This document shows, piece after piece, positions 1 to 34,013 of a stretch of DNA of 38,200 bases. Position numbers and translations under genes: made by a program. This DNA is from Hydrurus foetidus (Eukaryota), in the NCBI GenBank assembly GCA_900617105.1, contig UYFQ01000763.1:1-38200 (forward strand), written 5' to 3'. Within the stretch, counting starts at the first letter, position 1. The number at the start of each line of letters is the position of its first letter. The notes under the pieces are model-generated. The model was not told where the DNA came from and did no database searches. It was given only the letters and a program-made list of their open reading frames with translations.

Positions 1-105
1 GCTTGTACACACAAGACTTGCAACTCTTCATGCGGGTGTTCTACAAGCTCAGCGACGGCAGTTGCTCAGCTTGCTTCCGATGAGTCCATACTACGCACCA
101 CCAAT

Positions 106-3100
106 TTGACAACACTAGTGTTGCCACTTCCGCGTCAGAATGGATCTGGTGTAAAAACCAAAAGGCGTAAGAGAGTAGCTACTCTTACACCCTCATCCAT
201 AACACCAACCGAAACGCGTGGTATTGCGGCAGCTCTACTTAGGGAGGAAGACGAAGACCTCCCTGAGGTCGGTCTTTCCGTGATAAGGAAGGGATCGACT
301 ACAAGTCGAAGGATACCTTCGCTCCTTTTCAAGACAATCAAAACAACGATTCGATGTACTTAATTGATTTAATACATATCGATGGTACACCAACTGAGAT
401 TGCCGAAATTAAAGCGATTTGCATAAAACACAAATCGCTTTTCAAAAACGAGCTGGGTCCAGAACCCGCTCGAATTCCTCCTTTTGATTTCAAAAAGGTA
501 AACATACCTCAATGGAAACACTTCCGTAATCGGGGTGCTCCCAGAGTCGCTTCAACGATGCGACAAGAGGAAATCAGAAAACAAATCGTAGCAATGCTCA
601 AAAAGGGAATAATAAAACCATCGGATGCCTCATATTACTCCCAAGTAATTCTTGCAAATAAACCAGACGGTTCACTCCGATTCTGCATAGATTACAGGAA
701 CCTCAATGAGGCAACTGAATCTGCAAGTTGGCCGATCCCAAATATAAAACAAATGTTATACAGACTTGGCGCCCAACGGCCAAACGTATTCGGCGTAATC
801 GACCTTACGGCCGGATACCACCAAGCCCCAATAACACTGGCGGCACAAGTATTTACCGCATTTATAACATTTATGGGTATATACCAATTCACATGACTAC
901 TATTCGGTCCCAAGATGGCCCCATCATACTTTCAACAGGTGATGGCGTCAATAGTACTACTTGGCCTTATATACAGCATCTGTGAAGTCTATTTAGACGA
1001 CATCATCATATATGCTGATGGACACATCCAATTCTGTGAACGTTTAGAAACATTGTTTCAACGTCTAGAAGATAAAAACATTTCACTCAAAGCTGCAAAG
1101 CTAAGACTTAACGTCAAAGTAGTTGAATATGTAGGTAGACAAATATCTAAGGAAGGTATATCAATGAGCTCCAAAAAGATAACGGGTGTGACTGACTTTC
1201 CGATGCCAAGAAAGACAACTGAACTACGTTCGTTCCTCGGTCTCACCAATTACTTTAGGGATCATGTACCAAATCACTCTAATGTGGTAGCACCGCTACA
1301 CAAAATGATAGATCACGCCGCCAAAAAGCAAACATTGCTTGTCTGGACAGACGAAGCGGCCGACGCGTTTACGTTAGTCAAAGATCTTATCTCTAAGAGT
1401 CCCTTATTATATTTCATCGACGATGTAGCACCTATTACCCTCATGACAGATGCGTCTGACTACGGCATAGGTGGTTATTTATATCAAGAAGTCGACGGAG
1501 TAAAACAACTCGTCGCTCTCGTTAGCAAATCTCTTACCAAGACCCAGTTGAAATGGTCCGTAATACAAAAAGAGGCTTACGCCCTTTACTTTTGCTGTGA
1601 CTATCTCGACGCCCTGCTACGAGATCGTAAGTTTACTATCCTGACCGATCACAAAAATCTTACTTTCCTGCACAAGGATAAAAATGAGATGGTCGGAAGA
1701 TGGCGCTGTGCGCTACAGGAATTAGACTTTACGATAGGGTATGTCCCTGGGAAAAATAATGAAGTCGCTGACGCAATGTCACGCCTATGTAAAAACAAGA
1801 TGCCGAAACACATCATAACAGCAATCCTTACTTGCAAACCGATTGCAGCGGAAATATATGCATACTTAATGCGTGCCCACAACTCTACCGTTGGGCACGG
1901 AGGATTCAATCGCACTTTGCGAAACCTAAAAAAAATAGGGAAAGTATGGGAAGGCATGAGACACGATATAAGAGCATACATTAAACAATGCCCGTGTTGC
2001 CAAAAGATGTCTGCTGACAAACAAAAACCCGTCACCCATCGTTTCACAACATCAACATATGCACCTATGGAATGCATAAACATAGACTTTATTGGTCCAT
2101 TCCCGGATAAAGGATACATCCTTGTTATGGTAGACACCTTCACAAGGTTTGTCGAACTATCAGCCACAACTGATAATACTGCAAAATCGGCCGTAACAGG
2201 CCTAATAGAACACATCGGTCGCTACGGAGCTCCCAAATTCCTGCGATCCGATAACGGTTCCCATTTCGTAAACAAAATCCTCGAGGAATTTGTAAAAGTT
2301 GCCGGTACAACACACAACCTTATTCTACCATACTCTTCGCAAGAAAACTCGATAGTAGAGCGTATGAATAAGGAAATTAACCGACACATCACGGCATTTA
2401 CATTTGACCGTGCAACTACGGAAAACTACCGAGAAATTTTACCATTCGTACAACGAATTATAAATACGACATTCAACGTACGGACACAGTCAACAGCAGC
2501 AAAGCTTATATACGGCAATGCTATTGACCTTGATGCCAACATCCTTCTCCCTCGAGATGAGATAAACTTAGACATGACTCATGTCACCCATTCTACTGAG
2601 AAAATTATGCAGATGCAAGATGAACTCATCAGAATCACTGCTGAACTACTCAAAGAAGCCGACGAGAAACGAAAAGCAGGCGGTTCCACCGACTACACAA
2701 CGTTCGAAATCGACTCGTTGGTGCTGGTTACCCACCGGACGTCAAAACCAACACACATGCACACTTTATGGAAAGGTCCCATGCAGGTGGTCGCTAACGA
2801 TCTCGAAGAGTATACCCTACTCGATCTTATTACCAACCGCGAAAGAAGATATGTATCAAATATTAAACAATTTGAGTTTGACCCCACGAAGGTCAACCCA
2901 ACCGATATCGCCCGACGAGATTATCTCGAGTTCTTTATCGAAGATATCCTAGCAATGGAAGGAAACATCCGAGTCGTGGGAACATTAAAGTTTCACGTCA
3001 AGTGGCTAAACTATCCCAACGACAGAAACACTTGGGAACCGTGGAAAAACATGCGTGACGCTGAAAAAGTCCACGAGTTCTTAATTGCTAAAAACCTAAA

Positions 3101-3140
3101 ACACTTGATTCCAAGTAAATTCGCTGAAAATTATCGTTAA
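106..3140 (+). pseudogene. pol: gypsy pol (RT, RNase H, integrase, chromodomain), disrupted
   Basis: Motifs LRFCIDYRNLN, IDLTAGYHQ, VYLDDIII, LMTDASDYGIGG, GHGG...CPCCQK, INIDFIGP/LRSDNGSHF/NSIVERMN and FHVKWLNY...TWEP. ORFs 354-896 and 915-3140 are in the same frame, split by TGA at 894-896 (expected R of the R-x-P-F-G motif). Probable frameshift near 275-280. Confidence 0.93.
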
Positions 3141-3293: not shown

Positions 3294-3510
3294 TGTGACC
3301 CGCACAGCTGTACAGCTGTACGGGTACCGGCGTACGTTCGGTTCGGATCGGGGACGATCCGAGCCATCCGATTCATGGCTTGCCTATCTCTGTGTTTATC
3401 TGTAAGCTAAACACATCTTTAGCCAATAGCACCAGCACCATAGCTGCCTTCCTCTTGCCCCCGCGCCCGTGTCCCATCAGTCCCACCGCCGAGCCCATAG
3501 TTAGGCCACA
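3294..3510 (+). repeat. 3' LTR of gypsy copy A (217 bp)
   Basis: Starts TGTGACC and ends GGCCACA (imperfect terminal inverted repeat). About 90% identical by eye to 34879-35095. Confidence 0.92.
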
Positions 3511-5623
3511 CCACGAATGGCTTTTGCGTATGTTAGCGGAGATTCGTCGGCCGCAAGGTTTAGGGATGACACAGCTGAGGCTGATGTTGCACTAGTTCTA
3601 CTTCGTGTCACCGGTGCTTCAGGTCGCGTTTTCAACAGCGGCATTTTCTGAGCGGGGAAAGGAATATCTGGTGCGATAACTTCTGTAACTGTCGCGACAC
3701 ACGGTGCATGGGTGCTGATAGGGCTAGGCTGCAGAGCAGCTTCTATGACCTGACTATCGGTCGAATCAGACACTGGTAGGGGTAGTGGCGGTACGCTCGT
3801 GGGCTCTGATGAAAGCACCCTCTGTTCCTCGGCCGTGTGCGCTATGCGATGTGGTAATAGGTCTGGCGTATTTTCAGTCGGAGTGATGTCGAGTGCAGGA
3901 ATAGGTTCATGTGTTGGGGCGATGTCGTTTCCTGTCGGTATTTCCCGAACGTCTTCAATTGAAGCTGTAGGTGACGCAGTGTGTGGACAGAACGATTGAA
4001 CGAATGCTGTCAGATCGGCGAGCATTGTGTGCGGCGGATCATTTAATTGTCGTAGGTGCGCTGTTTCTGGGTGCGCCGCTGCTAACGTTGATATTGCACC
4101 TGCCAGATCTTTGATTGCAGCGATTGCAATGTCGTGCGGTCCGATGTTTGGTAGCAATGGTTTGTCCAGTAACCACGCTAGTGTATCTGTAACTCGTATG
4201 GATTGGGTGTCTACTGCCCAAACGCTGAAGCAGTGATAATGCTGTTGTGCTGGTCCGAGATAAAAGCCGAGTACACCATGCGACGCCCATGTACCACGAG
4301 CAGTGGGCTTATCGTGGATGATGACCTTGGTTCCTGCGGGTTCTATCGGATGCGCTCGAAAGTCGAATTGGCGGCCATGAAGTCCTTCGTACGCAGAAAT
4401 GTTTGGATTTGGGCCGTAAGGTAGAAGGTGGTTCAGACAAAGTTCTGCTTGAGGAAGAAGTTTGTCCCACAAGGTCATCGGAAAATCATTTGCCACTGTG
4501 CATAGAGTCGAGATAAAATGGTTCTTAAACGTCCTGATGGCACGTTCCGCTTTCAGTGATCTGTGTTGACCTGGTGGGCAATATTGTATTTGAATGTTGT
4601 TCTTCGCTGCAAAGGTCTCTAGTGCTGTGGACGTTTCGTTGAAAAGTCTTTGGAACAGCGGTTTGTGGCCAGCTCTATCCCAGAAGTTCATTGTGTTCCT
4701 GTAAGCGTTCACGTAATTGGATTTGTGACGTGATGCGATGGGTTCACAATGGATATATCCATCTAGAACTGAGATAAATACGTATTCGGATCCGGATAAT
4801 GCCTTGATAGGAAATCTGCCCGTTAAATCCGAATGCGCCGTTTGTGACAGAGATAGCGTCTTTGTGAAGACGGTTCCGCGCGGTAGAGGTGGATTCTCAA
4901 CTTGATCTGCATCATCAGGGTGTTCGTCCTCCGAGGTAGAGTCGAGACCCTGACAGTGTTGATCGAGGTGTCCCCTGGCTGTTGCTGCTGTCAGGGAGAG
5001 GTATGAGGTAATCATGGTGCTTGTTAACCGTGGGTATGATGCCAGATAGCCTTTCGCACTGCGCGAAGTAGGGTGGACAGTACTGGGCTGCCGAGTGCAG
5101 TATGTATGAACGTTGCAAAAGCTGCATCAGTGTCACTGCGGAGTATGGCTGATGCTGATGTGGCGACTGTAGGTGTTCCGAGTTGGACGTTCCATAAGTG
5201 GTCGGACTTGTCTTTCCTGTGGTGCAGTACAGTGTGTCCATCCTTGGTGACGTGGACGTCCTCACTAGTGAAGGTGGCTATGCATCCATTGTTACACAGC
5301 TCTGAAATGCTGACGAGTGAAACGTCTAGAGTGGCGTCAGGAAATATATGCGCTGTAAGTGGAACAGATAGATTGGGCAACCACAAGTCTCCAGCCGACG
5401 TAGAGCAGATGGTGTCACCGTTAGGTAGTGCAACGCGGATGTTGTTGTCATGACGCACGTTACGTAGGTGTGCTGCGTCCGTTTCTCGGAGTAGAATGTG
5501 GGAAGAACCAGTGTCAGCACACGGTAGGTGGGGAGCAGAGTGGGCCGATGAAGGTAAGACTGTTGGATCTGAACGAGTTTGGTTTAAGTTACCGTCCAAA
5601 ATCTTACTTTCACGGCCTACTTG
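3511..5623 (-). pseudogene. pol: copia pol (protease-integrase), frameshifted and truncated
   Basis: In frame with gag after the TGA. A 1-nt frameshift near 5050 (VRK/GYLASYPRLT; compare IRAGYLSSWPRLT in the inner element) joins ORFs 5024-5599 and 3501-5015. Confidence 0.88.
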
Positions 5624-5626
5624 TCA
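5543..5626 (-). promoter_or_regulatory. putative stop-codon readthrough signal (UGA CAA GUA plus long 3' hairpin)
   Basis: In-frame TGA at 5624-5626, a 6-nt spacer, then arms 5594-5617 and 5543-5569 that are near-perfect reverse complements. Confidence 0.7.
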
Positions 5627-6673
5627 TAGTTTGTGTGTGGAGCCATTGGCTACGTCGGTGTGATTGTTGGCTGTTTTCATTGCCGCTGTGTATTCCGGTA
5701 AAGATGCCATTTGACGGCACTGTGCACTGCTGTGCGAGTTGTAACCGTGTTTGAAACAGTAAGGTCGATTGGATGAATTGCCTTGGTTGTTTGCTTTCAC
5801 CTTGTTAGGTAAGGCAGCTGAAATTCTTTTATCTATGTACGCTGCAAACGCCGCTGACTCGAAGTATGCTGGTGTTGTATCTGTTGTAGCCGATAATGAC
5901 GCTGCGTATCCGAGGTCGATGGGTACTGAAACAAAGTTCGGAGCTTGCTCGGTGATATGGTCGACGAGTTTCAAGAAGGTTTGCTGTGCGATATGTGGAT
6001 GAGCTGTCAAATATGACGTGGTTGCTGTTGTGTACGAGATGTTAGACCCAATGGCGGCCCGCAAGTATCGACATTTATCAACCTCGGAGAGTCCCTGGTT
6101 GGCGGAAGAGAACTGGACGTGGATCAAGCGATGCTGTGCTGCTAATTCAGAAAAGGTTCTCATGCCAATTTTGACGTTAAGCTCGGTGCGGAACGCATCG
6201 AAGTCGGATGCTAAGAAGGTTCCATAACGTTCCCGTAGGTGGTCTAGTAGCTGTTGACAAGATATTGCCACCAGGCCGAAGAAGGGGTCGCTGAGTTCGT
6301 TTCTGTCAGCGTCGGATAAATTGCTGATGATTGCATTTTTCAGGACTCGAAGTGCTTCCGAAATTGCCGAGTTGCGTCTCAAGGTGATTTCATATTGCTT
6401 TAGGTTGGCAGCTAATGCACCCAACTCTGGTGGAGGCGTGAAGATTATGGTCGGTCGATCTGCGATGATAATTTCCCCTTCGTTTTCAGGGTCATCGACT
6501 GCGTTTCCTGGAAGCATGGCCCTCTGTGCCTCTGAAACGCAAAATCCCAGAAGGCCGTTCGGCCCCATATTTTCCTGGCATCTACTGCCAAACGCTGTGT
6601 TGGTCGCTCTCAAAAAGGCTTGCATGCTCTGCCTTGTGCTTGCTTTGATGTCTGGTAGGCAGACTTCTGTCAT
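5624..6673 (-). CDS. gag: copia Gag (349 aa) with C-terminal C-X2-H-X4-H-X4-C knuckle
   Basis: Intact ORF starting 15 nt after the LTR. Shares DRNELSDP, HLRERYGT and YCFKHGYNSHSSAQC-type motifs with Gag at 19392-20528. Confidence 0.88.
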   Translation of the reverse strand: MTEVCLPDIKASTRQSMQAFLRATNTAFGSRCQENMGPNGLLGFCVSEAQRAMLPGNAVDDPENEGEIIIADRPTIIFTPPPELGALAANLKQYEITLRRNSAISEALRVLKNAIISNLSDADRNELSDPFFGLVAISCQQLLDHLRERYGTFLASDFDAFRTELNVKIGMRTFSELAAQHRLIHVQFSSANQGLSEVDKCRYLRAAIGSNISYTTATTSYLTAHPHIAQQTFLKLVDHITEQAPNFVSVPIDLGYAASLSATTDTTPAYFESAAFAAYIDKRISAALPNKVKANNQGNSSNRPYCFKHGYNSHSSAQCRQMASLPEYTAAMKTANNHTDVANGSTHKL

Positions 6674-6688
6674 TTGATCTCACTCAAC

Positions 6689-6989
6689 TGTTGATACTGA
6701 GGGATCAACTGGTCTGAATCGAAGATCGTGATTCAATTTGGTTGAGTTAGATTATGTCAAAATGGTGCAGATGATCATGTGATGCAGCAGAGAAGCAATT
6801 ACCAATCGGTGATTTGTCAGTTGTCCGTAAGTGTACAATGTTCAGTGGTTGCGTATACGACTTCTACATCGTGAGATTGCTCTCTACTGTGTTTGTCGTG
6901 CAGAGATTCAAGTCTTTGTCTTGGCGAAGAAAAGCGGATTGTTTCTCCAAGTTCCGCATGCGGTGCGTACAAGTCTTGTTGTATCAACA
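6689..6989 (-). repeat. 5' LTR of copia element 1 (301 bp)
   Basis: Bounded by a perfect 9-bp terminal inverted repeat TGTTGATAC...GTATCAACA, directly upstream of gag. The partner LTR is outside the window. Confidence 0.8.
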
Positions 6990-7430
6990 CCGGGAACCGG
7001 GAACCTCAGAGTGGGGCAAACTACAAACTATTTGAATAATATTTGCAAATGATGGTGGTGCTGGAATATTACTATTTGAATATTTATCATGAATAATACA
7101 GTTAATGACAGACATATCGGAAATCTGAGCTGCACAGCTTCTGAAGATGAGCCATGACATCAGGCAAGCAGACAAAGGCAACATCATTACGCACAATGAC
7201 ACGTCAAGTAGTGATGCAAATGATGGTGGTGCTGGCTACGGTCAACGGGCTGATTTTGCTATCCTCCTCCGAGAATTCGGTCGATGACACATTGGTGGGT
7301 CGATGGCACATTTGTGACGAAAAAAAAATGCAAGGGTTTACCCCTTTCCACGACGGAAACCAAGTTCAAAAATGGGTTAGAAGGCAAATATAAAAAGGAG
7401 TAGGCAAAAGTCCGTTGATTGCGCTATCTG

Positions 7431-7845
7431 GAAGCGAGGGAGGATTCGCCGAAGTGGAATCTCCCGTTGTAGACAGATGGCCGACGAGCGATGGCCAAAG
7501 AATTATGGCCAGAGAGTTCTAGCCAATAAATGATGGCGAAGAAATGACGGCGCTCTCCACGGACAACGTCGGAAGTTCATTAACGCGAACTTGATGGCCT
7601 CGGCAATTCTCGAAGAAGAATTGCCGGCAGTTGAATGATCTCGAAGCGAGGGAGGATTCGCCGACGTAGAAGCTCCCGTTGTAATAGGTGACCAAGAAAT
7701 GATGGCGCTTTCCATAGACAACGTCGGAAATCCGTTAACGCGGGGGAAGTTGATGGCCTCGGTAATTCTCGAAGATGAATTGCCAGCAGTTGGATAATCT
7801 CGAGGCGAGGGAGGATTCGCCGAGTTGGAATCTCCCGCTGTAACT
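7431..7845. repeat. imperfect tandem repeat (two ~157-bp units plus a partial third)
   Basis: GCGAGGGAGGATTCGCCGA-type core near 7434, 7646 and 7805. Segment 7541-7664 aligns with 7696-7823. Confidence 0.75.
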
Positions 7846-14844: not shown

Positions 14845-14958
14845 CAGCTCCTCCAAATGAAACTGAGTGAAAAAGGCACTCCAGAAAGTTCGGCAGAATG
14901 TTGTTGATATTGTCGTGGAAAAGCGGGAGATAATGGAGGCGAAATGAAGCCTAACCCG

Positions 14959-15230
14959 TGTTGTATATTACATACGTAGCACTGGTGTTGGTACGAGGTG
15001 TACGTGCACAGGCGACACTTCGTGGGTGATTTGTTACGTGCGCGACACTTTGAATGCGTGATCGAAAATACATATACTAGTTTGAAGTTGCGAACTGTAA
15101 ACTTTGTGGGCATGCTCGTGCGTCTTGCTCCACAAGTTTTAATAACAAGTCATTGATCACAGAGACCATTTTACGAGCCTTGAGAAGATTTCCGTGTAGC
15201 GAATCTTACAGAAATCCGAGTTTCTCAACA
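14959..15230 (+). repeat. 5' LTR of outer copia (272 bp)
   Basis: TGTTG...CAACA; duplicate at 25275-25546. Confidence 0.97.
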
Positions 15231-15240
15231 TATTAAAACT
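15231..15240 (+). promoter_or_regulatory. non-tRNA, self-complementary primer-binding site of outer copia
   Basis: TATTAAAACT is the exact reverse complement of AGTTTTAATA at 15135-15144 inside the LTR. Confidence 0.7.
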
Positions 15241-18200
15241 AGCAGGAGCCATTGTGATGCCTCCCAAACGCGCCGGTGAACCAAAGGAAGCGCCAGAATG
15301 CATTCTGAGAATTGGAAAGTACAACAATGTTGTAGCTTGGAACTTGGAAATGCGATCTGTTGTGGGAACCCTGTATGGGTCCACAGCCAACTTCCTCACC
15401 GATAACCTGAGATACGTCCCGCCCTTTCCTACGGAAGAGGACTATATTCCTGTCAACCCAGCACTCGCGGAAGGAGTGGCTCCTGCTTCCATGCCAGCTG
15501 CGCTACTTGCAAAGCTACGGGAGGACTGCTTCACTGGGAGACGCAAAGAGATTGCGCAGCAACGCAAAGACGAGCAGAAGATTTGGTCACTCATGTGGAC
15601 ACGCATGTCTCCTGCCTCGCAGAGCAAAGTCCAGGAGGAGCCTGGATACGCCGCCGCGCTATTGGCGCGTGACTGCGTACTGCTGTGGGAGTACATACGG
15701 CGTACTCACCTGACGCATATTTACGGGGAGGGAGACCCTATGCTTGCCCTGAACATTCAGGACCAGGAACAAAGGTACAATGCTATCAAACAGGGGGACA
15801 AAGAGTATGTGTCCAACTTCAAGCTGCAGTTCGACGCTCAAGTCCAGGCGTGCAGGGGTGCTGGGATGGCTGAAATCACAGAACCGAAACGTGCCCTAGA
15901 CTTCATATACAAACTAGACCCAAAGAGATTTAGCAAGATGGTCGCGTTCATGAGGAACAATGCACTATGCATGGAGGGCGAGGCCTTCCCACAGACCCTG
16001 GCGGCCGCGTGCCGTATAGCATCCGGCTGGGTAAACGAAGATACCGGCGGGCCCCAGATCCCAGGATCCGAAACCCACTCTGCTTTTGCCACTGAGGAAA
16101 CGAACTTGGTAACGAAGTCTAAGGACCCTGAGAAAGGCAAACGAAGTACGACCAAGAACGACACAACTGCCAAGAAGAAATCTTCCACGGATGTGGAGTG
16201 CTTCGTGTGCGGCGAAATCGGTCACTACGCTAGAGATTGTCCGCTGAAGAAAGGGTCTGCACGCGCTCTCATGGCAGCTACAAGCGCTGTGAACAACAAA
16301 CGAGACTCATCCGACGACGATGAGGTTGCCTATATCACCTCCGCGGAAATGGTGCTGTTCTCAAGAGACGACGTTCTGTTAGACAGTCAGGCGTCCGTCA
16401 ATGTTTTCTGCAACGAGAAGCTGCTCAAGAATATGAGAAAGTCTGAGAAGCGAGTCGTGCTAAACGGCGTCCAAGCCAAAGCCGACGGTGTGATCATAGA
16501 GCTCGAAGGAGATTTCGGTGTGGTTGGAAAAGTATACTTCAGTAAAGACTCGACGGCTAACATCCTGTCCTACGCTGTTATGGTTGATCAAGGCAACGAC
16601 GTCAGCTATGACAAAATCAACGATCGTTTCCTGTTGAAGCCACTCGGAAGTACAAACGTGTATTCCTTCAGTAGGAAGCAAGTAAGCGGAAGTGAAGGTC
16701 GGTTTTACTGCTGCAATGTTACTTCGATGATGGAAGATCGCACGATCAGATATCCTGTAGCAGAACATGCACTCATCGAAACAACGGCTGAAAACATGCA
16801 GAGGTACTCTAAGAGAGAAATTGATTGCGCCAATCGGGCTAGGAAGTTACTGAGCAAAATGGGATTCCCGCCGGTTATTCAAGCGATGAACATCGTGGGC
16901 CGAGGAAGGAAGTTCGATGTGACGGCTCGAGATTTCATAGTGGCGGATGCTATATATGGGAAGGATATTGCTTCTATGAAAGGAAGAACAACTAAGAGTG
17001 CTACGAAGATTGCTGACATTACAATTGGAGCAGCTATCGTACAACAGGAGCAAATACTTTCAATCGACATTATGTACGTAGACGGAGTGGCATCGCTGAT
17101 CGGTCTTGCCAGTCCGTTGGATCTAACCATGGCGGTATCGCTGCTGTCATTCGACACCCTGCAGAGTTCGAGATCAGCAGTAGTTGTAAAGAAGGGGTTG
17201 GATGGATTTATCTCCACTTTAGCATCAAGGAGTTTTGTCACGAGATTGATAATGAGTGATGGGGAGGGAGCCATCGGTGCTATCAAAGATGATCTGAACA
17301 ACCTTGGTATAGAGGTTGACGTCAGCGGGGCTGGCGGTCACGTGGCTAGGATCGAAAGAAGGATCCGAACGGTGAAAGAAAGAGTAAGAGCTTTCATATC
17401 ACATGAACTGCCGTTCACCCTCACTGCTCTGGGCGTAGCCATGCTGGTTCTATTCTGCGTGTCGAGAATTAATTATCAGACATCTGAGTCAAGACATGGT
17501 GAGGATTGTCCGCGCGTAGTATTTACCGGGAGACAAGTTGACGCTAGACTGGATTACAGGATCGGATTCGGAGAATACGCACAGTGTACTGTGCCCAACA
17601 CTGATGCGACGATGGCAGCGAGAACCGAGGATTGCGTAGCTATGCTGCCGACTGGAAATAGAACTGGTTCTGTGAAGATGATGTCAATCAGCACTGGCAG
17701 GCTGGTAACTCGCGACCAGTTCACGATACTTCCTATGCCATCATCAGTTATTGACAAGCTGAACGATATGGCTGTTGCCGAAGGAAGGAAGGTCGTCGTT
17801 AATAGAAACATGGTGTATGGTATACAGAGTGGATTACGAAAAGCAGATGATCCTACATACATGAGATCGTTTGAAGTCGTTACGGTAGACCCGGCGGTTA
17901 CGGCCAACAGTACTACAACAGAGGACGCGTATGAGTTTCCTCAGTTTCCATCGATAGATCAGCAAACGCTTGGGGACGACGTCGGCGTAGGACGAGAGGC
18001 GGAAGCGGAGATGCGGAATACAGACTATTATGACATGCCAGATTTAGATGTGGGACCACTGATTGAGTTTGAACCATATGTCGAATCCAACGCCAACCCT
18101 GATGCGTCAGTGCCAGTGACGCCACCGAGATCTGTTCTCACTCCTGTGTACACGAGATATAAAGCAGCTGCACAGCGGAGCCCACCACTGAATAGAGATC

Positions 18201-19223
18201 TAATGCACTACTACAACGCGAACGATGCTGTGCTGACGAGTGCACTTGCAGATACGGGAGTACGCAACGAGCATGTTATGAACATCTCAGTGAAGGAAGC
18301 ATTGAGAAGTAGGGGTGCGGAGGCCGAAAGGGTAATACTTATGGAGCTTTCCCAGATGATAGACAAAAAAGTATGGACGCCTGTACATATCGGAGTGCTG
18401 TCGGGTACGGAAAAACGCGGGATTATCCGTTCTCAAATGTTCCTGAAGGAAAAATACTTACCGACGGGGGTGTTCGAAAAGCTGAAGGCGCGTCTGGTTG
18501 CTGGCGGGAATCAGCAGGATAAGGACTTGTATGACGACTTGTCGTCTCCCACGGTCTCTACTAGCGCGGTGATGACCGTGTTCGCGATAGCGGCATATGA
18601 GAAGAGAAATGTGTCGGTTGTAGATATCGGAGGAGCTTTCCTGAATGCGACTATGGACACAGGAATTACAGTGTATATGAGACTAGACAAGACCATGTCG
18701 CTCATGGTGTGTAAGATCGATAAAGGATATGCAGATTACGTGGATGACAAGGGATGTGTCGTTGTCCGACTTGATAAAGCGCTCTACGGGTGTGTGGAAT
18801 CGGCAGCATTATGGTACGAGAACCTGTCAGAAGCGTTTAAGACGTGTGGATATGAGAAGAATAAGTACGAGGTATGCGTGTACAATAAACGGAACGAGAA
18901 GGGAATTCAGTGTACTGTGGCCGTGCACGTGGACGACCTTATCATATCCAGTGTAGATGGGGGGATGATTGATGCACTGTGTGACAACCTTAGGAGAAGA
19001 TATGGAATCATTACACGCGCTGATGGGCCTGTTGTGAATTATCTCGGTATGGTCTTTGACCTTACCGTACCTGGGGAAGTAAGAATGACTATGCGCGGAT
19101 ATGTGGAGGATACTATAGCGTATGCTGGTGTACCGGGTACGGCCAAGAGTCCGGCCACGGACGGCCTGTTTGATACTCGAGATGAGGCGGTTGCAGCTGC
19201 AGAGAATGAAAGCTTGTGGTTTC

Positions 19224-19381
19224 TGTTCATGTATGTACAATCATTCGATCTTGACCTCGATCTGCACTTCAATCTGTCTCTGTGCTTTCATTCTCGCTTC
19301 CTTCATAAGTTAATCTAAACCAACGTAAACTTGCCCATCAGTTTACTGAACGTTCTTCAGGTTGCTTCCACTGGTTCAACA
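19224..19381 (+). repeat. 5' LTR of inner copia (158 bp)
   Basis: TGTT...AACA; duplicate at 24364-24525. Confidence 0.96.
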
Positions 19382-19392
19382 GTTTAGATTAA
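19382..19392 (+). promoter_or_regulatory. non-tRNA, self-complementary primer-binding site of inner copia
   Basis: GTTTAGATTAA is the exact reverse complement of TTAATCTAAAC at 19310-19320 inside the LTR. Confidence 0.75.
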
Positions 19393-20528
19393 TGACAGAC
19401 ACAGTCCCGTTCATTACACTCACAAAAGAAAATTTTGCCGAATTTCAAAGGCAAGTCTATGACTATGCGTCAAGCATTTGCCTAGACAACGGTTTTCTAA
19501 CTCATCGGCATGGGCTGCTCTCTTTCGTTGTCACAAACGAAATATGGCAAAATTTGCCTGGAAACGCAGTTCAAGACGACGCAGTGCCGCCCAATATCAT
19601 TCTTCGCCCACGAGATGTTCTCACTCCTCCCGAAATTCCAGCTGAGAACGCCAATGCATGGCGAGTATTTGAATACAGAACAAAAGAATTCGACAAGGTA
19701 GCAGTCGCAGTCCTCCTCCTTACAAGACGCCTCAAGGATGCTTTACCAGCATCAGATCGCAACGAGCTTTCGGATCCGATATTGGGCATGGGCCAATTGA
19801 CCGCATTGCAACTCATGACCCACCTACGCACACAGTATGGTACATTAACATCTGAAGACTTCAAAGCTTTGCACGCACAGTTGACACACAAGCTGGACTC
19901 TGCAACTAACTTCACTGGGTTCGCTGCCGACCAGCGGTTCATTTTCCAACAATTAGCTGCATATGGTCAGCCAATTCCAGAACTCCAGAAATGTGATTTT
20001 CTCCGCAATGGAACTTGCCATCTGTTTCCAGTGCAAAAAGCCATCGATTCCTACCTTACCGCTCATCCGCACACGGCCAACCAAACTTTCAATAACTTGG
20101 TTGCCCACATCACACTGCATTCTCCAAACTTTTCCCAGTCCACTGGAGACATGGGATACACTGCCGCGGCAACCCACATCAATCCAGTTCCAACGTCTGA
20201 AATCTCCTCAACAGTTGCAACACTTCTACTCTCGCCTACCTTCCTCACTGCGTTGGCAACAGCTGCCGCAGCTGCAGCCATCTCTCCTCCACCACGGTCT
20301 CCACGCCCGTCCCGGGCAGGCCGTGGAGGGCGTGGTCAACTCAAAACACCTAACCCATCCACAACAGACTCACAACGTCCCTACTGTTACGCCCATGGAT
20401 ACAATGCTCACTCAAGTGCTGACTGCTACAAAATGCGCTATAGCCCTCTTGCCAAAAACTACACAGATGAGGCACGATTGGCCACCAGTCACACCTCAGT
20501 CGCTGGCGGATCAATTATGCGCTTGTGA
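19392..20528 (+). CDS. gag: copia Gag (378 aa) with C-X2-H-X4-H-X4-C knuckle
   Basis: ATG 10 nt after the LTR (MTDTVP, compare MTEVCL in element 1). Contains YCYAHGYNAHSSADC and ends at an in-frame TGA. Confidence 0.88.
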   Translation: MTDTVPFITLTKENFAEFQRQVYDYASSICLDNGFLTHRHGLLSFVVTNEIWQNLPGNAVQDDAVPPNIILRPRDVLTPPEIPAENANAWRVFEYRTKEFDKVAVAVLLLTRRLKDALPASDRNELSDPILGMGQLTALQLMTHLRTQYGTLTSEDFKALHAQLTHKLDSATNFTGFAADQRFIFQQLAAYGQPIPELQKCDFLRNGTCHLFPVQKAIDSYLTAHPHTANQTFNNLVAHITLHSPNFSQSTGDMGYTAAATHINPVPTSEISSTVATLLLSPTFLTALATAAAAAAISPPPRSPRPSRAGRGGRGQLKTPNPSTTDSQRPYCYAHGYNAHSSADCYKMRYSPLAKNYTDEARLATSHTSVAGGSIMRL

Positions 20529-20610
20529 CGGCTAGGCTTGAGAAGTGATGTGCCTGATGCCACTGTAACTAACACAGTCGATTGCAATCCACCACATCTT
20601 TCTTTCGCCT
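20526..20610 (+). promoter_or_regulatory. putative stop-codon readthrough signal (UGA CGG CUA plus long 3' hairpin)
   Basis: In-frame TGA at 20526-20528. Hairpin 20534-20610 with stacked helices AGGC/GCCT, GAGAAG/TTTCTT, GATGTG/CACATC and ACTGT/ACAGT. Confidence 0.7.
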
Positions 20611-23600
20611 TTTCAGCACCTAAGCTCGCATGCAGCGACACAGGATCCACAAACCTTTTAGTAAGACAATCTGATGCCTCTGCTGTCATCATCGATCCTC
20701 ACCTACAGCCTATTTCAGTAACTCTTCCCAATGGCTCCACCATTAGCTCAAGTTTCAGTGGGACGTTGCTCTTCCCAAATCTTCCTTACCCTATAAATGC
20801 CTACATTTTCCCCGACAAAGTCCTTCATACTTCGCTATTAAGTGTCAGTGAACTTTGTAATGTCGGATGCCTCGCCACATTTACCGACACGCAGTTTCAC
20901 GTTACATACAACAACTCAACAGTCCTACACGGCATCAAAGCAACGTCCGACACACTATGGACGGCCCAACTACCGACACAATCTGCAGCTGCATCGACGC
21001 ACACCACTTCATCTCACGCGGCACGCCTTACCGCAGACGCTGAGTTTGTTTTATTCGTGCACGCTTCCCTAGGCAGCCCGGTCTACTCTACCTTCTTGCG
21101 CGCCATTCGAGCTGGTTACTTATCGTCATGGCCCCGACTCACAACAAACATCGTCTTAGCCCATCCACCACACACAATCGCGACAGCCAAAGGCCACTTT
21201 AATCAATTGCGACAAGGTTTGGACTCTACCAAGACAGACGCAGTCTGTCCAACGACTGATAATGACGATAGTCCGGAGTTACCTCTTACAGCTGAGTCTG
21301 CTAACCATACTTACGTCAAGATGGTTCGTCTCCCACACACCGTCAGCTCCGATTTAACTGGAAAGTTTCCTGTTCAGGCTGACAGTGGCGCACAGTACAT
21401 CCTCATTTCGGAAATGGATGGATATATTCATGCGGAACCCTTAGCATCGCGCCATCACACAGCTTACATCTCAAGCTTTACGCGAACAATCTCTTTCTTC
21501 ACCGCCCTAGGCCGTATCCCCTTCTTCCTACGACTAGATAATGAAACGTCCGCACCACTCGATGTGTTCATGAAGCGGCAAAGCATCAAGATGCAATACT
21601 GTCCACCGGGTATGCATCGATCGAATAGAGCAGAAAGGAGCATCCAAACATTCAAGAATCATGCAATAGCAACACTCTGCACAACCTCAAAAGACTTTCC
21701 TCTCACGTTATGGGATCGTCTATTACCTCAAATCGAACTCTGTTTAAACCATTTACACCCTTATAAACCAAACCCAACGATCTCAGCATACGCCGGTCTG
21801 CACGGTGGAGCTCATGACTTTAGAGCCAATCCGATCGGACCAGCCGGTGCTAAAATTCTCATACATGATAAACCCAGCACTCGGGGATCGTGGGCTCCGC
21901 ATGGAGTTGCAGGTTTCTATCTTGGTCCTGCTCCACAACATTACAGATGCTTCACAGTGTGGTCATCATCAACAAATGCAGTGCGGATCACCGACACACT
22001 CGTCTGGTTTCTCGACAATCTACAGCTGCCGAATCCCTCTGTTCATGATCTACTTCTTGCCGCAATTCATGATCTCACCACCGCCATCAATACCATCACA
22101 AGTGCCCACCCCGCTCTCCATCACCATCGTCAGCTCAGCAATATTCCAAATCTCACTCAACAACTTCATGACATCGCATCTTTATACAATCCTCCTCCGA
22201 ACGTACCTATATTGCCGATCAATGCTGTCGCTGATCCTCCCGATGCCACGGAACAGAGGGTGCACATCCCTCAGGCACCACTTTTGACCCATCTCACTTT
22301 ACCGGCAGTCTCCCAACACCCACTTACACCCACTCCCACTACGGAACAGAGGGTACCTGTTACTGATAGTGTGCCCTCCCCTCCATCGAAGTCTCAGAGT
22401 TCCAACATCGACAATCTCCCAAATGTTCCTCTCCTACCTTCCCAAAACCCACCCACAGTACCAAAACCACCGTCCCCGCCAGTAACTCGACAGCACACTG
22501 CGCGTCTGCGCGCTCATGCTGCACTTAATTTGGCTGCAGATGGCAGCCCTCTTACATACTCTAAAGCAAAAGCTGGGCCTGATGCTGCACGGTGGTTACA
22601 AGCCGAGGCGGAAGAGTTTGATCGCCTGATTACGTCACACACGATAAAACCCATCCATCAGTGCGATCAACCACATGATCGCCGTCGGGATACTACCTAC
22701 TTCAATCCGCAAACAAAACAAAAGATAGATTCTGGTGGTTCCACTACCTATCGCATTCGTGGCACAGCTGGAGGAGACAAAATCAATTACACTGGACCTA
22801 CATCAGCGCAAACAGCTGCCATGCCAGTCGTCAAGCTTCTGCTTCATTCCGTCGTCTCCGAGCACAAACAATGGATGACAATTGATATCAAAGATTATTA
22901 CCTCAACACTCCCCTACTGCGTCCTGAATTCATCCGGATCCCATGTCGCATGATACCCGACACTACAATCGCTACCCACAGTCTCATACCGTATGTCCAT
23001 CAAAATGCGATTCTTTTTGAAGTCAATAAGGGTATGTACGGCCTGCCCCAGGCAGGACTATTGACACAGCAACGCTTAATTGCCCATCTCGCCAACCATG
23101 GCTACCATGAGACATCCACTCCCTGTCTGTTTAGGCACACCTCCAACGGCACTGCTTTCACTCTCGTGATCGATGACTTTGGAATAAAATATTCGTCTAA
23201 GGCTGGAGCTGACTATCTTATTCGCACCCTTCAACTTCTTTACGTTATCACCATCAATTGGACCGGGTCCACATACATCGGATTTACGATTGTTTTCAAC
23301 AATACATCCCGCCAAGTTTCCCTCACAATGCCCGGCTACATCAGCAAAGTATTAGAGCGATTTGCTCCGCACCTTTGTCTCGGTGCTGCCTCTCCAGCCG
23401 TCTACATTCCTCCATCATATGGTGCCCCTACACAAAACGTTACTTCCGACACCTCACCACTGTTACCGCCATTAGCCATCAAAAGACTTCAGGAGCAAGT
23501 CGGTTGCCTGCTTTACTATGCCAGAGGAGTTGATGCTACCATACTTCCAGCAGTCAACCACATCGCCTCCCTACAATCTCAACCTACCGACATCGTTGCT

Positions 23601-24258
23601 GCTGCTATGGATCGTCTTCTTCAGTATTGTGCTCGCTACCCCGACAACGCACTCGTTTTCACGGCCTGCGATATGCGACTCTTTATGCGCTTCATACCTT
23701 TCCCGTCCGAAGGCACGCTCCGTCGCAGGTGGCATTTTCTACCTTGGCAACAACAACCAACCAACAACTATCAACGGTCCCTGTCTAACTCTTAGTACCA
23801 TCATTCCTGTAGTCGTATCATCTGTTGCTGAAGCAGAGTATGCAGCAGTGTTTATGAATGCCAAAGAGGGGGCCTCTATCCGAGCTATTCTCGACAGTCT
23901 CGGCTACCCACAACCTACAACCGACATTCTGTGTGACAACATGTGCGCTGTTGGTCTCGCCTCCGATACTGTCACTCCCAAGAAAACAAAATCGATCGAT
24001 ATGCAGTTTCACTGGATAAGAGATAGAGTTCGTCAGAAACAATTCAGTGTCACTTGGCGTCAAGGAGCGCACAACTTGGCTGACTTCTTCACGAAGGCCC
24101 TCCCAGTGCATCTTCATCGCACCCTTATGCCTTTTCTCGTCAGCATCCCGCCAACACCTAGCACAAAGTTTCAAAGCTCACAAGCTCGTCGCTCATGTGC
24201 GTGGAAAATGCTTCGTCACTATGCGAGAAATCATGACTGCAAATTGCTATCTGAGTAA
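20529..24258 (+). pseudogene. pol: copia Pol (PR-IN-RT-RNase H), frameshifted at the start of RNase H
   Basis: SDTGST, SDLTGKFP/RLDNETS/RAERSIQTFKNH, YRIRGTAGGDKI, TIDIKDYYL, KGMYGLPQAG, LVIDDFG, SSVAEAEY, CDN and NLADFFTK. The frame changes near 23688, where the expected x-S-D before ASYLS is missing. Confidence 0.92.
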
Positions 24259-24363
24259 TATAACTAGTAATTTTGTTAAAGCACTTCACTTTGTTGATTA
24301 CGCTCAAAATTCCTTAGTATGGCTTATTCTTCATTCATTGGCACATTACAGCTTGAGAGGGTG

Positions 24364-24525
24364 TGTTCATGTATGTACATACAATCATCCGATCTTGACC
24401 TCGATCTGCACTTCAATCTGTCTCTGTGCTTTCATTCTCGCTTCCTTCATAAGTTAATCTAAACCAACGTAAACTTGCCCATCAGTTTACTGAACGTTCT
24501 TCAGGTTGCTTCCACTGGTTCAACA
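24364..24525 (+). repeat. 3' LTR of inner copia (162 bp)
   Basis: Direct repeat of 19224-19381, followed by TSD GTTTC. Confidence 0.96.
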
Positions 24526-25274
24526 GTTTCATAGTGTAGTTGCCAAACTGAGTTATCTAGCAAAACGTGCAAAGCCAGAGTGCCTGACCGCTGTTGCATA
24601 TCTGGCTACGAGAGTCACCAAGTGTACTGAGGATGACTTAGAGAAGTTGAAGCGTGTGCTGAGATATGTAGCGAATACTCGTGAAAAAGGGGTTGTGCTC
24701 AGACCAGGGGTGATGGGAATATGCGTGAGAGTATACGTGGATGCGGCGTACGGGGTGCACAGTGATGGGAAGTCACATTCGGGGAGTTGCATTGTCATAG
24801 GAGATGTTGGATCAGTGCACTGTAAATCGAGTAAACAGAGCATAGTTACTAAGTCCAGTACAGAAGCTGAGCTGGTAGCGTTATCAGACTCAGCCAATCA
24901 AGGCTTATACTTGCGCAATTTCCTGAAAGAGCAAGGACACTCGATGGGACCAGTAATCATATATCAAGACAACACGTCGTGCATGGCGCTTGTTGCTAGA
25001 GGGAGATCTGGTGCAGAGAGGACAAGGCATATCGGAATCAGATATTTCTGGTTACAAGAGAGAATCGAAACTGGAGAAGCGGTTGTGGAGTACAAGGGTA
25101 CAAAGGAGATGTATGCTAACATTCTCACTAAACATCTGCAGGGCTCTCAATTCATTTACGAAAGGGATTCCCTAACGGGGTGGATTTGAGGAGAGATATT
25201 TTGCCTGACGAGTAGGCCGCAATATAAATGATATGCTATGCAAACTGTTTGAATACTAGCCAGTACTAGGGGTG

Positions 25275-25546
25275 TGTTGTATATTACATACGTAGCACTG
25301 GTGTTGGTACGAGGTGTACGTGCACAGGCGACACTTCGTGGGTGATTTGTTACGTGCGCGACACTTTGAATGCGTGATCGAAAATACATATACTAGTTTG
25401 AAGTTGCGAACTGTAAACTTTGTGGGCATGCTCGTGCGTCTTGCTCCACAAGTTTTAATAACAAGTCATTGATCACAGAGACCATTTTACGAGCCTTGAG
25501 AAGATTTCCGTGTAGCGAATCTTACAGAAATCCAAGTTTCTCAACA
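25275..25546 (+). repeat. 3' LTR of outer copia (272 bp)
   Basis: Direct repeat of 14959-15230, preceded by AGGGGTG and followed by TSD ACCCG. Confidence 0.97.
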
Positions 25547-28808: not shown

Positions 28809-29064
28809 GCTATTTGCGGCGTCGAATTGCCACTCCCCGCTCTCACAATGGTGCGGCTGAGTAGCTGATGCCTCTTTGTACGTGCCCTGTCTCCGATATC
28901 ACTGTTATTAAGAGTTGAGTTGCAAGATATTCAGCGAACTTTGATTCTTCACAAGATCCGGGAGCCGACAACCAGGCCACTCAATATGGCGTGCCAAACT
29001 GTTCAAAATTATTTTTTCCCGGATTTTGAAAAAATTTCCCGGATTTTCATCTCGGTCAATTAGA

Positions 29065-29468
29065 GGGTGCGTTCGGTAAATTTCGTGGAAAAACCTTCAT
29101 TTTTTTCAAAGTTGAATATGACGGGGCGATTTCAACTTCTGAAAACTGCGATTTCCTCTGGAAACGGTTTACCGAACACACACCAGAAATTTGGGGGGTC
29201 CGAAATTTTTGAGGGGTCAAAAGTCGGACAACGGACAAACCACCGCACAAATTTTTTGGGGGGCCTAAAAGCTTCATCTCAAAACTTGCAGGTTTCAGGA
29301 TTCACCTAAAACATGAATCGTTTCAAACCACAACTTTCCGTGATTTCTCACGCTGCAACAAATTTACCGAACGCTCATTTCAGTAAAAAAACTTCAATCG
29401 TCGGAAATGAAAGATTTTCGCCGAAAATCGTCGGAAATACAGGTTTTCGAAGTTTACCGAACGCACCC
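29065..29468. mobile_element. Tourist/Harbinger-like MITE (404 bp)
   Basis: 16-bp TIR GGGTGCGTTCGGTAAA / TTTACCGAACGCACCC, 3-bp flanking duplication AGA, internal TTTACCGAAC copies. Confidence 0.78.
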
Positions 29469-29772
29469 AGAGTGTTTGCGATTTCCGTTTTTTTGAAAAA
29501 TTCGTCCCCTTCGACTTTGAGGCCGGTCCTTACGGTGTCGGATTTCAGGGAAAGTTAGGCCCTTCCTAGTGGAGTACAAATTACAAAATACAAAATTTGA
29601 AAATTTTTGAACTTTTATTTTTGTACTTTGTACCTCTACGGTTGTAGTGGTTGACAAAATACGAAAGCTCTGTTTTGTATCTTTTTTAAACCTCACGTTT
29701 GTAGTGGATGTCATTTTACAAAACACAAATTTCAACCTCCAAATTTTTTTGCCACCACCTCAATTCTGCAAG

Positions 29773-30527
29773 ATGGTCAAAAACAAGGTTATGCAAGCCA
29801 AATCCAAGTCCGTGAAGAAACTTCTCGAGAAACTCAAAGCTCCCCAGTTGAAGGCGTTGCAGTATCTTCTTGCTGCAAATGCCTATGTCTCAATTATTGA
29901 GGGATCTGCTCGGAGAAAGAAGACGCAGAAAGAAGACATGGAAATGTGAGTTGTTTAAACTCTGATTATAGCATTTTAACCTCTCAAGAACTCATCAATT
30001 TGATTGTCACTTGATAGATTATACCATGGTGATGGCGGCGACCAGCTTGGTCAAGTCAACCAACTGTTGAATAGGAATAATCGCTATAAAGTCTTATGGG
30101 ACGGAGATAAATTTGGTTCTGGGTTTGGGATTTTTAGCGGTGTTACCAAAAATTCCGTCAAGGAAATCATCAATATGCCGACCACTTGAGTTCATATGCA
30201 GAAACACTTGAGTTCATTCTGGGATCTAATGGAGAACCTGTACCTGAACCAGTGTATCAATCCTCCATTCCAATGCATCAGCCTACCATTGTGCCATCAG
30301 CATCTACTCACCTTTTCAGTAAGAAACCATCTCTACCTGTTGGACTCAAATGCTCTGCCCCCAGCGAGCTTCGTAAAGTTAAATAGAAGATTGCAGCTCA
30401 GGCCCCAGTGAACGCACTAGCAAACACCGTCATTGGCAGCAGCGGAAGCAGCAGCAGCAGAATGAGCAGCGGGAGCAGCAAAAGGGACAGCAACCAAGAG
30501 AAATCCAGCAGTAGCAGCAGTAGCAGT

Positions 30528-30567
<40 letters not shown>

Positions 30568-30614
30568 AGGAAGGCAAGAGGTTAGTGAAAAAGAGAACTA
30601 CTCATAGTGTTTAA
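29773..30614 (+). pseudogene. second (accessory) ORF of the Harbinger element, disrupted
   Basis: ATG at 29773 (MVKNKVMQAK, basic), plausible GT-AG intron 29946-30017, then stops/frameshifts and a Ser-rich, basic tail. The position fits the Harbinger DNA-binding partner gene, but no Myb/SANT motif is recognisable. Confidence 0.4.
30507..30563 (+). repeat. (AGC/AGT)n trinucleotide tract
   Basis: Directly visible. Confidence 0.9.
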
Positions 30615-30894
30615 TTGATTTATAACTTGCATTGTTACAATTGGTTTTTGTATTGTGTACTCCACTACGATCGAGAGGTACAAAAATCAGGATACAAAAA
30701 AAGGAAAAATAAATATGCTTCGAAAGTATGAGAATATAAGTTGAAACTTGTTAATATAATTATGTGAATAGATTTAACGATAAATAAAGTTTGAAATTTT
30801 GTATGTTTATTTTGTACTCCACTACAATCGAACGGATACAAAATAAGAATGAATAAATACAATACATGATAGACAAGGACTTAAAAACATTAAC

Positions 30895-33939: not shown

Positions 33940-34013
33940 TCGTCAAATCCGGGAAATTTTTTCAAAATCCGGGAAAAAATAATTTTGAACAGTTTGGCAC
34001 GCCATACTCAACG

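What the first reader, a model, noticed from the sequence alone, without database searches (positions are those of the whole stretch)
5543..5626. Independent second instance of the readthrough cassette (minus-strand copia)
Seen: mRNA-sense UGA CAAGUA is followed by GGCCGUGAAAGUAAGAUUUUGGAC (5617-5594), which pairs with GAUCCAACAGUCUUACCUUCAUCGGCC (5569-5543). That gives about 23 bp with three single-nt bulges, one mismatch and a 24-nt loop. Known: CAAGUA fits the CA(A/G)N(U/C/G)A leaky-stop context defined in yeast and is close to the TMV CARYYA motif. Inference: the stop is programmed rather than a decay mutation, because an accidental stop would not recur at the homologous codon with a flanking hairpin.
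Basis: partly seen in the sequence, partly recalled or inferred. Interest (0 to 1): 0.75.

Follow-up and report, generated by a model that had tools for sequence, protein, structure and literature searches.

The report
Copia gag stop with conserved hairpin
A broken copy of a copia-type jumping gene, probably from an alga, has one UGA stop between its coat gene and its enzyme gene, followed six letters later by a predicted RNA stem that distant relatives keep with different letters, so the enzymes are likely made by occasional readthrough of that stop, a strategy already known from other retroelements.

Summary
The TGA at 5626-5624 (minus strand) ends gag of a truncated, frameshifted Copia retrotransposon; pol follows in frame with no AUG before the protease. 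The lower 16 bp of the hairpin (5617-5601 with 5543-5560) is robust; the upper 7 bp is ambiguous. The stop is not decay: the second Copia in the window (41% identical) and all 7 distinct related gag-pol junctions fetched have TGA at the same codon, and 52 of 55 gag homologues end there. In these 9 junctions a stem starts 6-7 nt after the stop with different letters; each 5' arm fits its own 3' region better than other elements' (best of 720 pairings among 6 divergent junctions; shifted controls null). The CAAGUA/TMV-like hexamer is not conserved; UGA-C plus stem (alphavirus-like Type II) fits better. The two window copies are homologous, not independent origins. Readthrough itself is inferred (about 0.75); no RNA data. 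Closest known: Tca2, Tj1, MuLV, alphavirus readthrough. This scan noted the same gag-UGA-pol layout before on other DNA. New member of a known kind; the covarying fixed-spacer stem is the added evidence.

The parts
6689..6989 (-). Inferred 5' LTR of element A (301 bp, TG...CA ends, 9-bp terminal inverted repeat); no 3' LTR partner in the window
   Evidence: Sequence; three diverged sister contigs stop aligning at 6987-6990; self-blastn finds no second copy
6677..6688 (-). Primer-binding-site position; not tRNA-type (no TGG); 11 of 12 nt complementary to 6752-6741 inside the LTR (self-priming signature, inferred)
5627..6673 (-). gag of element A, 349 codons from ATG, with a C-terminal Cys/His knuckle (YCxxHGY...H...C)
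   Evidence: ORF list and translation; alignment with homologues; no Pfam hit
5624..5626 (-). In-frame UGA ending gag
   Evidence: same column in element B and 7 other distinct junctions; no variant in 11 of 11 listed sister contigs that span it
5618..5623 (-). 6-nt spacer CAAGUA (first base C kept in 7 of 9 junctions; rest variable)
5601..5617 (-). 5' arm of the robust lower stem (starts at +7 after the stop)
   Evidence: pair probabilities 0.91-1.0
5561..5600 (-). Upper region / loop with alternative folds; most variable part among sisters
5543..5560 (-). 3' arm of the lower stem (ends at +81)
   Evidence: contigs of diverged sister families break at a shared word around 5536-5565
5054..5623 (-). 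Start of pol, in frame with gag: linker, aspartic protease motif DTG at codon 37, no Met codon in the 199 open codons
3510..5053 (-). Rest of pol after a frameshift near 5054 (integrase region); cut off at about 3510 just before reverse transcriptase, next to an unrelated repeat
   Evidence: tblastn frame change and end; near-identical contigs of other runs have a gap at this place and run on past 3510
19224..24525 (+). Element B, a young homologous Copia (LTRs 98% identical, 5-bp target duplication) inserted into element C; gag 19392-20525
20526..20609 (+). Element B cassette: TGA 20526-20528, spacer CGGCUA, predicted stem 20535-20552 with 20593-20609 (also +7 to +81)

Best explanation
The UGA at 5626-5624 is the conserved gag stop of a Copia retrotransposon family, and ribosomes likely read through it at low frequency, likely helped by the C after the stop and by the predicted long RNA stem that starts six bases later, to make a little Gag-Pol and much Gag. 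Shown: gag and pol are in one frame, separated by this single stop; pol has no AUG before the protease; the stop and a stem of the same geometry but different letters recur across distant relatives. Inferred: that the stem forms on the translated RNA at the ribosome's mRNA entry, that it competes with termination, that a near-cognate tRNA (Trp, Cys or Arg in other systems) is inserted, and that this sets the Gag to Gag-Pol ratio. This window copy is itself frameshifted and truncated, so it cannot make a full Pol; near-identical longer sisters exist in other samples.
For: Stop in the same column in A and B at 41% identity. Of 9 loci fetched, 8 have TGA 39-47 codons after the knuckle (two of them, L003 and L005, share one junction); the ninth, L006, shows no pol after gag and was dropped. 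52 of 55 gag-only proteins with a recognisable knuckle end 40-50 residues after it (73 gag-only of 173 proteins). Only 6 of 120 listed long pol homologues (of 257 found) have any gag match, two of them weak. No variant at 5622-5626 or 5614-5617 in sister contigs; 11 of the 21 listed pieces span the stop, 7 with 10-22 differences. All 9 junctions fold better than codon-resampled versions (z -0.9 to -3.7, mean -2.1). Own-arm versus other-element pairing: -18.0 versus -13.0 kcal/mol, 3 of 362,880 permutations as good for 9 junctions; best of 720 for 6 divergent junctions with any of 4 representatives of the related subgroup and for arm lengths 12-24; 2 of 120 without A and B; five shifted control offsets 161-695 of 720. 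The effect peaks at offset +6/+7 and is near zero upstream of the stop. No Met before the protease in A, B, L001, L004. UGA is not a general Trp codon here: 49 TGG and no internal TGA in 6053 codons of ten stop-bounded window ORFs (weak, since ORFs are defined by stops). Precedent: UGA-C plus a stem with a long loop raises readthrough 3- to 14-fold in alphaviruses (PMC3159437); the Tj1 gag stop is needed for transposition (PMC4600332).
Against: No RNA, ribosome or protein data. In Tca2, the closest Copia precedent, 300 nt around the UGA gave no readthrough above control in a S. cerevisiae reporter (PMC2194720), so layout plus predicted structure does not prove structure-driven readthrough. Single-copy stability is modest under a protein-preserving null (A 8 of 150, B 14 of 150, L002 27 of 150), a helix at +7/+8 appears in 20-63% of resamples because the encoded Gly and Pro favour it, and B's 108-nt MFE failed my helix test (8 of 9 passed). 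The arm geometry for the cross test was chosen after seeing the folds. No phased two-sided compensatory change could be shown among close sisters; one frequent variant (5607) breaks a pair. Some relatives have gag fused to pol without a stop (10 of 173; 6 of 120), scattered on a poorly resolved quick tree. 2 of 9 junctions lack the C after UGA, and L002 and L009 have a Met in the linker. 4 of 9 junctions (L002, L003, L007, L008) lose the pol frame within 34-55 codons, so they are decayed copies.
Confidence: 0.75

Rival explanations
1. The stop is conserved and read through, but the stem has another job (RNA packaging, dimerisation, Gag binding, or protection from nonsense-mediated decay) and does not stimulate readthrough.
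For: Tca2's junction with a predicted structure did not drive readthrough in a reporter; stronger folds exist elsewhere in gag; Tj1-like elements keep only a short UGA-CU context (PMC10085805).
Against: The stem's start is fixed at +7/+8 from the stop in all 9 junctions while the loop length varies, as expected for an element acting on a ribosome at the stop; a 6-nt spacer is reported for SEPN1 and 8 nt for MuLV.
Confidence: 0.1
2. Pol is made by a bypass other than readthrough: rare splicing that removes the stop, RNA editing of UGA to UGG, or internal / non-AUG initiation from a subgenomic RNA.
For: Drosophila copia uses splicing, and Tca2 has a weak junction promoter. Five database proteins have Trp at the stop-equivalent place (by eye), which may be TGG variants or gene calls made with another genetic code.
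Against: No GT donor at a shared offset in more than 4 of 9 junctions within 60 nt upstream, and those offsets come from Gly-Ser codons or the stop itself. No AUG before the protease in A, B, L001, L004. The UGA lies outside the robust stem, unlike a double-strand editing site. The linker stays open and in frame in the undecayed copies.
Confidence: 0.11
3. The UGA is recoded as selenocysteine, making Pol synthesis depend on selenium.
For: SEPN1 has a 6-nt spacer plus stem after its Sec UGA; many algae have selenoproteins (recalled, not checked).
Against: Fused homologues show Trp, Arg or other residues, not Cys, at that place; no Rfam match at 5300-7500; I did not search the 3' end of intact copies for a SECIS.
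Confidence: 0.02
4. The TGA is a decay mutation in a dead copy and the hairpin is chance.
For: Element A is frameshifted and truncated; the gypsy element in the same window has an apparent decay TGA inside reverse transcriptase at 894-896.
Against: Same stop in B, in 7 other distinct junctions, in all 11 listed spanning sister contigs and at the end of 52 of 55 gag proteins. The gypsy control TGA has no such arm pairing (-8.8 kcal/mol versus -22.4 for A; background mean -9.9).
Confidence: 0.02

Closest known systems
Tca2 (pCal) of Candida albicans, Ty1/copia (PMC2194720; abstract, Background and Discussion read)
   Same: Copia element; gag and pol in one frame separated by UGA; predicted RNA structure after a short spacer
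   Different: Tca2 has an 8-nt purine-rich spacer and a predicted pseudoknot; here a 6-nt spacer and a long-loop stem, kept with different letters across a broad clade, probably algal. Tca2's junction gave no readthrough in a yeast reporter.
Type II readthrough signals of alphaviruses and tobra/furo/pomoviruses (PMC3159437; abstract, Introduction, Discussion read)
   Same: UGA followed by C (element B and four loci have UGA-CGG) and an extended 3' stem with a long, poorly conserved loop
   Different: Those are RNA-virus replicase genes, tested for VEEV and SINV; here a retrotransposon gag-pol junction, untested; this copy has UGA-CAA, not CUA/CGG.
Tj1 / Tosmo / Tcry1 of fission yeasts, Ty3/gypsy (PMC4600332, PMC10085805; passages read)
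   Same: gag-UGA-pol with no AUG for pol; self-priming primer site in the LTR
   Different: Gypsy superfamily; a conserved 8-nt context (GAA-TGA-CT) and no stem mentioned in the passages seen; stop shown to be needed for transposition.
Moloney murine leukaemia virus gag-pol readthrough (as described in PMC2194720 and PMC3159437)
   Same: Structure 3' of the gag stop thought to set the Gag to Gag-Pol ratio
   Different: UAG-G, 8-nt spacer, compact pseudoknot; retrovirus.
CoDi (Copia from diatoms) elements (PMC2806351; passages and one methods section read, supplement not available)
   Same: [quoted passage not shown]
   Different: The passages seen propose no readthrough signal or stem; membership in a named CoDi group was not tested.

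Membership tests
Ty1/copia LTR retrotransposons | pol order protease - integrase - reverse transcriptase - RNase H | tested here: met
   B: protease motif at codon 37, RVT_2 at 751-956 (E 3.5e-5, below Pfam's cut-off), RNase H region after; A aligns to the protease-integrase part of the same homologues and is cut before RT
Ty1/copia LTR retrotransposons | LTRs with TG...CA ends and target-site duplication | tested here: met
   B has two LTRs 98% identical and a 5-bp duplication; A keeps only an inferred 5' LTR
gag-stop-pol readthrough retroelements (Tca2, Tj1, MuLV) | single in-frame stop between gag and pol, conserved in the family | tested here: met
gag-stop-pol readthrough retroelements (Tca2, Tj1, MuLV) | no AUG for pol before the protease | tested here: met
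   A, B, L001, L004 have none; L002 and L009 have a Met in the linker
gag-stop-pol readthrough retroelements (Tca2, Tj1, MuLV) | measured readthrough or Gag-Pol fusion protein | not testable with these tools
   no translation data available
Type II readthrough signal (UGA-CUA/CGG plus 3' stem) | UGA followed by CUA or CGG | tested here: not met
   This copy has UGA-CAA; CGG in 4 of 9 junctions (B, L001, L002, L003); C first in 7 of 9
Type II readthrough signal (UGA-CUA/CGG plus 3' stem) | conserved extended stem 3' of the stop with a variable loop | tested here: met
   (prediction and cross-pairing only; not probed)
Type I readthrough signal (TMV UAG-CAR-YYA; yeast CAR-NBA) | conserved CAR-YYA / CAR-NBA hexamer after a UAG | tested here: not met
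   Stop is UGA; CAAGUA fits CAR-NBA but not CAR-YYA; only 2 of 9 junctions fit; sisters vary at +3 and +6
CoDi (diatom Copia) lineages | RT/RNase H tree placement with named CoDi references | not tested
   no reference CoDi sequences were returned by the tools; only a diatom-named homologue

The most novel reading that the evidence does not exclude
A large, probably algal Copia clade sets its Gag to Pol ratio with a sequence-free, geometry-defined readthrough stimulator (UGA, 6-nt spacer, G-rich long-range stem with a 40-90 nt loop) and also self-primes reverse transcription from its own LTR, converging on the gypsy element Tj1's life cycle and on alphavirus-type recoding; it would be the first structure-stimulated readthrough signal for stramenopile-type ribosomes and would give a natural library of variants for testing how 3' stems act on termination.
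Probability: 0.5. Interest if true: 0.6.

Novelty: new member of a known kind. Interest (0 to 1): 0.42.

Why it matters
Gag-stop-pol layouts are known but uncommon, and for the one studied Copia case (Tca2) the bypass signal was not found. Here the signal has a testable shape: a stem that starts a fixed distance after UGA and is rebuilt with different letters in elements whose junctions are only 45-66% alike. If confirmed it would show structure-stimulated readthrough in an algal retrotransposon clade, explain why annotation splits these elements into separate gag and pol genes or calls them broken, and give ready reporter constructs. It does not introduce a new kind of mechanism.

Tried and rejected
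No whole genome is held for the window, so sister copies came from public runs and other loci. Search for longer (fused) gag homologues found none, which the tool calls weak evidence. Two viral-contig scans found no relatives. Searching the two genomes behind L008 and L009 gave only the same loci; these contigs sit in bacterial bins and are likely eukaryotic contamination (inference). No RNA holder listed for this stretch. Rfam: no match at E up to 1 in 5300-7500. No solved-structure match for B pol. MAFFT alignments of the junction DNA were too poor, and partly cut short of the 3' arm, for column-based covariation, so I used an alignment-free cross-pairing test instead. The gag tree is a quick, mostly unresolved tree and cannot order gain or loss of the stop. 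The host could not be placed: the protein atlas gave no answer; 'probably algal' rests on a neighbouring ABC1 kinase gene, a diatom-named homologue and freshwater/sediment holders. Gao et al. 2003 (survey of gag-pol recoding signals) is not held and the Maumus 2009 supplement could not be read; either may already list such junctions. Earlier notes filed under 'same genome' concern a bacterial piece of the same assembly and do not bear on this. Rejected: TMV-type hexamer as the conserved signal; global UGA=Trp code; decay.

Full report
What is there. The window is eukaryotic repeat-rich DNA with a gypsy element (1-3140), three Copia elements and an ABC1 kinase gene. The finding lies in element A on the minus strand: inferred 5' LTR 6989-6689, gag 6673-5627, TGA 5626-5624, then pol in the same frame with a protease motif at codon 37. 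A changes frame near 5054 and stops at about 3510, just before reverse transcriptase, beside an unrelated repeat. Contigs from other public runs are 99% identical to A, differ by one gap and continue about 1.4-1.5 kb past 3510 (records 9 and 14), so A is a damaged copy of a young family. Element B (19224-24525, plus strand) has LTRs 98% identical, a 5-bp target duplication and the same gag-TGA-pol layout. Element C, into which B inserted, has gag and pol in one open frame.

The observation. The quoted arms and the 24-nt gap are at the stated places. The region folds at -30 kcal/mol, z = -4.17 against dinucleotide shuffles, 0 of 200 as stable. With the protein held fixed the result is 3 of 1000 for 90 nt and 8 of 150 for 108 nt with another codon table. 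Six of 261 windows of the element, all in 5' gag, are more stable. B's junction gives z = -2.58 and 33 of 1000; its stem also runs from +7 to +81.

The stop is conserved. A and B are 41% identical and have the stop in the same column. Of 173 proteins from two searches, 73 match gag only, 90 pol only and 10 both. Of the 73, 55 have a recognisable knuckle and 52 of those end 40-50 residues after it; 18 without a match were left out. Of 120 listed long pol homologues (257 found), 6 have any gag match. These are gene-caller products, so they show a split but not its kind. DNA settles the kind: of 9 loci fetched, 8 have TGA at the homologous place; L003 and L005 share one junction, and L006 has no pol after gag and was dropped, leaving 7 distinct junctions plus A and B. 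In four public runs 29 contigs were laid on 5520-5655; 21 pieces are listed, 11 span the stop, 7 of these carry 10-22 differences, and no variant is listed at 5622-5626 or 5614-5617 (variants near contig ends are not reported and some contigs are the same family in different runs). Against this, some relatives are fused: five have Trp at the stop-equivalent place (by eye), which may be TGG or an artefact of gene calling with another code, and others have no sign of a stop; they are scattered on a quick, weakly resolved tree.

The stem is conserved in shape, not letters. The 100 nt after the stop are 45-66% alike between junctions by global alignment. All 9 fold better than codon-resampled versions (z -0.9 to -3.7), though individually several are not significant. 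An alignment-free test pairs each 5' arm (+7 to +24) with each element's +46 to +125 region: own -18.0, cross -13.0 kcal/mol, 3 of 362,880 permutations as good. Keeping one of the four related loci gives the best of 720 in every choice and for arm lengths 12-24; without A and B, 2 of 120; five shifted offsets give 161-695 of 720. The own-minus-cross gap peaks at +6/+7 and is about zero upstream. The geometry was chosen after seeing the folds, which the offset controls only partly offset. Among close sisters, 8 of 49 arm positions versus 12 of 26 loop positions vary (Fisher p 0.012); the commonest arm variants close the A-C mismatch at 5608, shift the bulge at 5613/5548 or give G-U pairs, and one (5607) breaks a pair. 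The hexamer is not the signal: CAAGUA, CGGCUA, CGGGUU (2), CGGUGC, UGUGUA, CAAGCA, CACAUA, GGGUUA.

How it most likely works. Shown: one frame, one stop, no AUG before the protease in A, B, L001 and L004, a stem fixed 6-7 nt after the stop. Inferred: most ribosomes end at UGA and release Gag; a few percent, slowed by UGA-C and the stem at the mRNA entry, insert an amino acid and make Gag-Pol, which the protease cleaves. Retroelements need about 20 Gag per Pol (PMC2194720 Background), and stems with long variable loops raise UGA readthrough 3- to 14-fold in alphaviruses (PMC3159437 Discussion). I put this at 0.75. Rivals: stem with another role (0.10), splicing, editing or internal initiation (0.11; no shared splice donor), selenocysteine (0.02), decay (0.02; a likely decay TGA in the gypsy element shows no arm pairing). 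The main caution is Tca2, whose junction gave no readthrough in a reporter.

Comparison and novelty. The layout matches Tca2 (copia), Tj1/Tosmo (gypsy) and MuLV; the signal works like a Type II alphavirus signal but this copy fails the CUA/CGG criterion, and it fails Type I. Maumus et al. noted one or no stop or frameshift between gag and pol in diatom Copia without proposing a signal in the passages seen. Searches for a description of readthrough or a stem in algal Copia listed none by title or abstract start; the library lacks most subscription journals, Gao et al. 2003 was not held and the Maumus supplement could not be read. Papers seen: PMC2194720 and PMC3159437 (abstract and two sections each); PMC2806351 (passages, one section); PMC5009743, PMC10085805, PMC4600332, PMC2774666, PMC6317226, PMC5445492, PMC3601003 (passages). 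Earlier notes of this scan report the same gag-UGA-pol layout in other genomes, one calling the hairpin unproven; they are unchecked and not counted as support.

Side result. In 6 of 6 elements with a recognisable 5' LTR end (A, B, C, L001, L004, L009) the bases right after the LTR are complementary to a stretch 52-86 nt inside their own LTR (7-14 nt exact; A 11 of 12), and not to other elements' LTRs (3-6 nt). This is the Tf1-type self-priming signature, proposed before for plant TAR copia (PMC6317226) and noted by this scan elsewhere.

Verdict. Real, conserved and probably functional; observation partly confirmed (16 rather than 23 bp), interpretation partly supported (programmed stop yes, TMV-type hexamer and independence no). 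New member of a known kind, interest 0.42.

Noticed in passing
window 6688-6677 with 6752-6741 (minus); 19382-19392 with 19310-19320; element C after about 15230; L001, L004, L009: No tRNA-type primer site; the bases after the 5' LTR are complementary to a stretch inside the element's own LTR in 6 of 6 elements, with different letters each time: Tf1-like self-priming signature.
   Followed up: yes
window 14958-25546: Nested insertion: element B sits inside the reverse transcriptase of a second Copia (C) whose LTRs are 100% identical over 273 nt and whose gag-pol is one open frame, so both insertions are very recent and two Pol-expression strategies coexist.
   Followed up: partly
window 894-896: TGA-CTA inside the reverse transcriptase of a chromodomain-bearing gypsy element; leaky-looking context but at a position likely to be a decayed Arg codon; no downstream arm pairing.
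   Followed up: partly
window about 23689-23795: Element B changes frame at the RT/RNase H boundary, so it too cannot make a whole Pol as it stands.
   Followed up: partly
window 20250-20340 and 5' part of gag A (about 6610-6500): The most stable 90-nt windows of each element lie in gag (B -45 kcal/mol in a GC-rich Ala/Pro/Arg/Gly stretch about 92 codons before the stop; A -33 about 320 codons before), stronger than the junction hairpin.
   Followed up: no
window 3294-3510 and 34879-35093: High-copy repeat with an internal palindrome abutting the truncation point of element A; 90% identical second copy in the window.
   Followed up: no
window 28985-34006: Nested 62-nt terminal inverted repeats (28985/34006, 29497/32362) and a 108-nt palindrome at 32175-32282, suggesting DNA transposons or MITEs.
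   Followed up: no
window 35415-38199: Long low-complexity acidic/basic ORFs with no Pfam match, possibly the gag of another retroelement.
   Followed up: no
L008, L009: Copia contigs lie inside two bacterial metagenome bins, likely eukaryotic contamination.
   Followed up: partly
proteins P0045, P0049, P0052, P0053, P0171: Trp at the place of the gag stop in fused gag-pol proteins: either natural TGG variants or gene calls made with a UGA=Trp code; DNA not available.
   Followed up: partly
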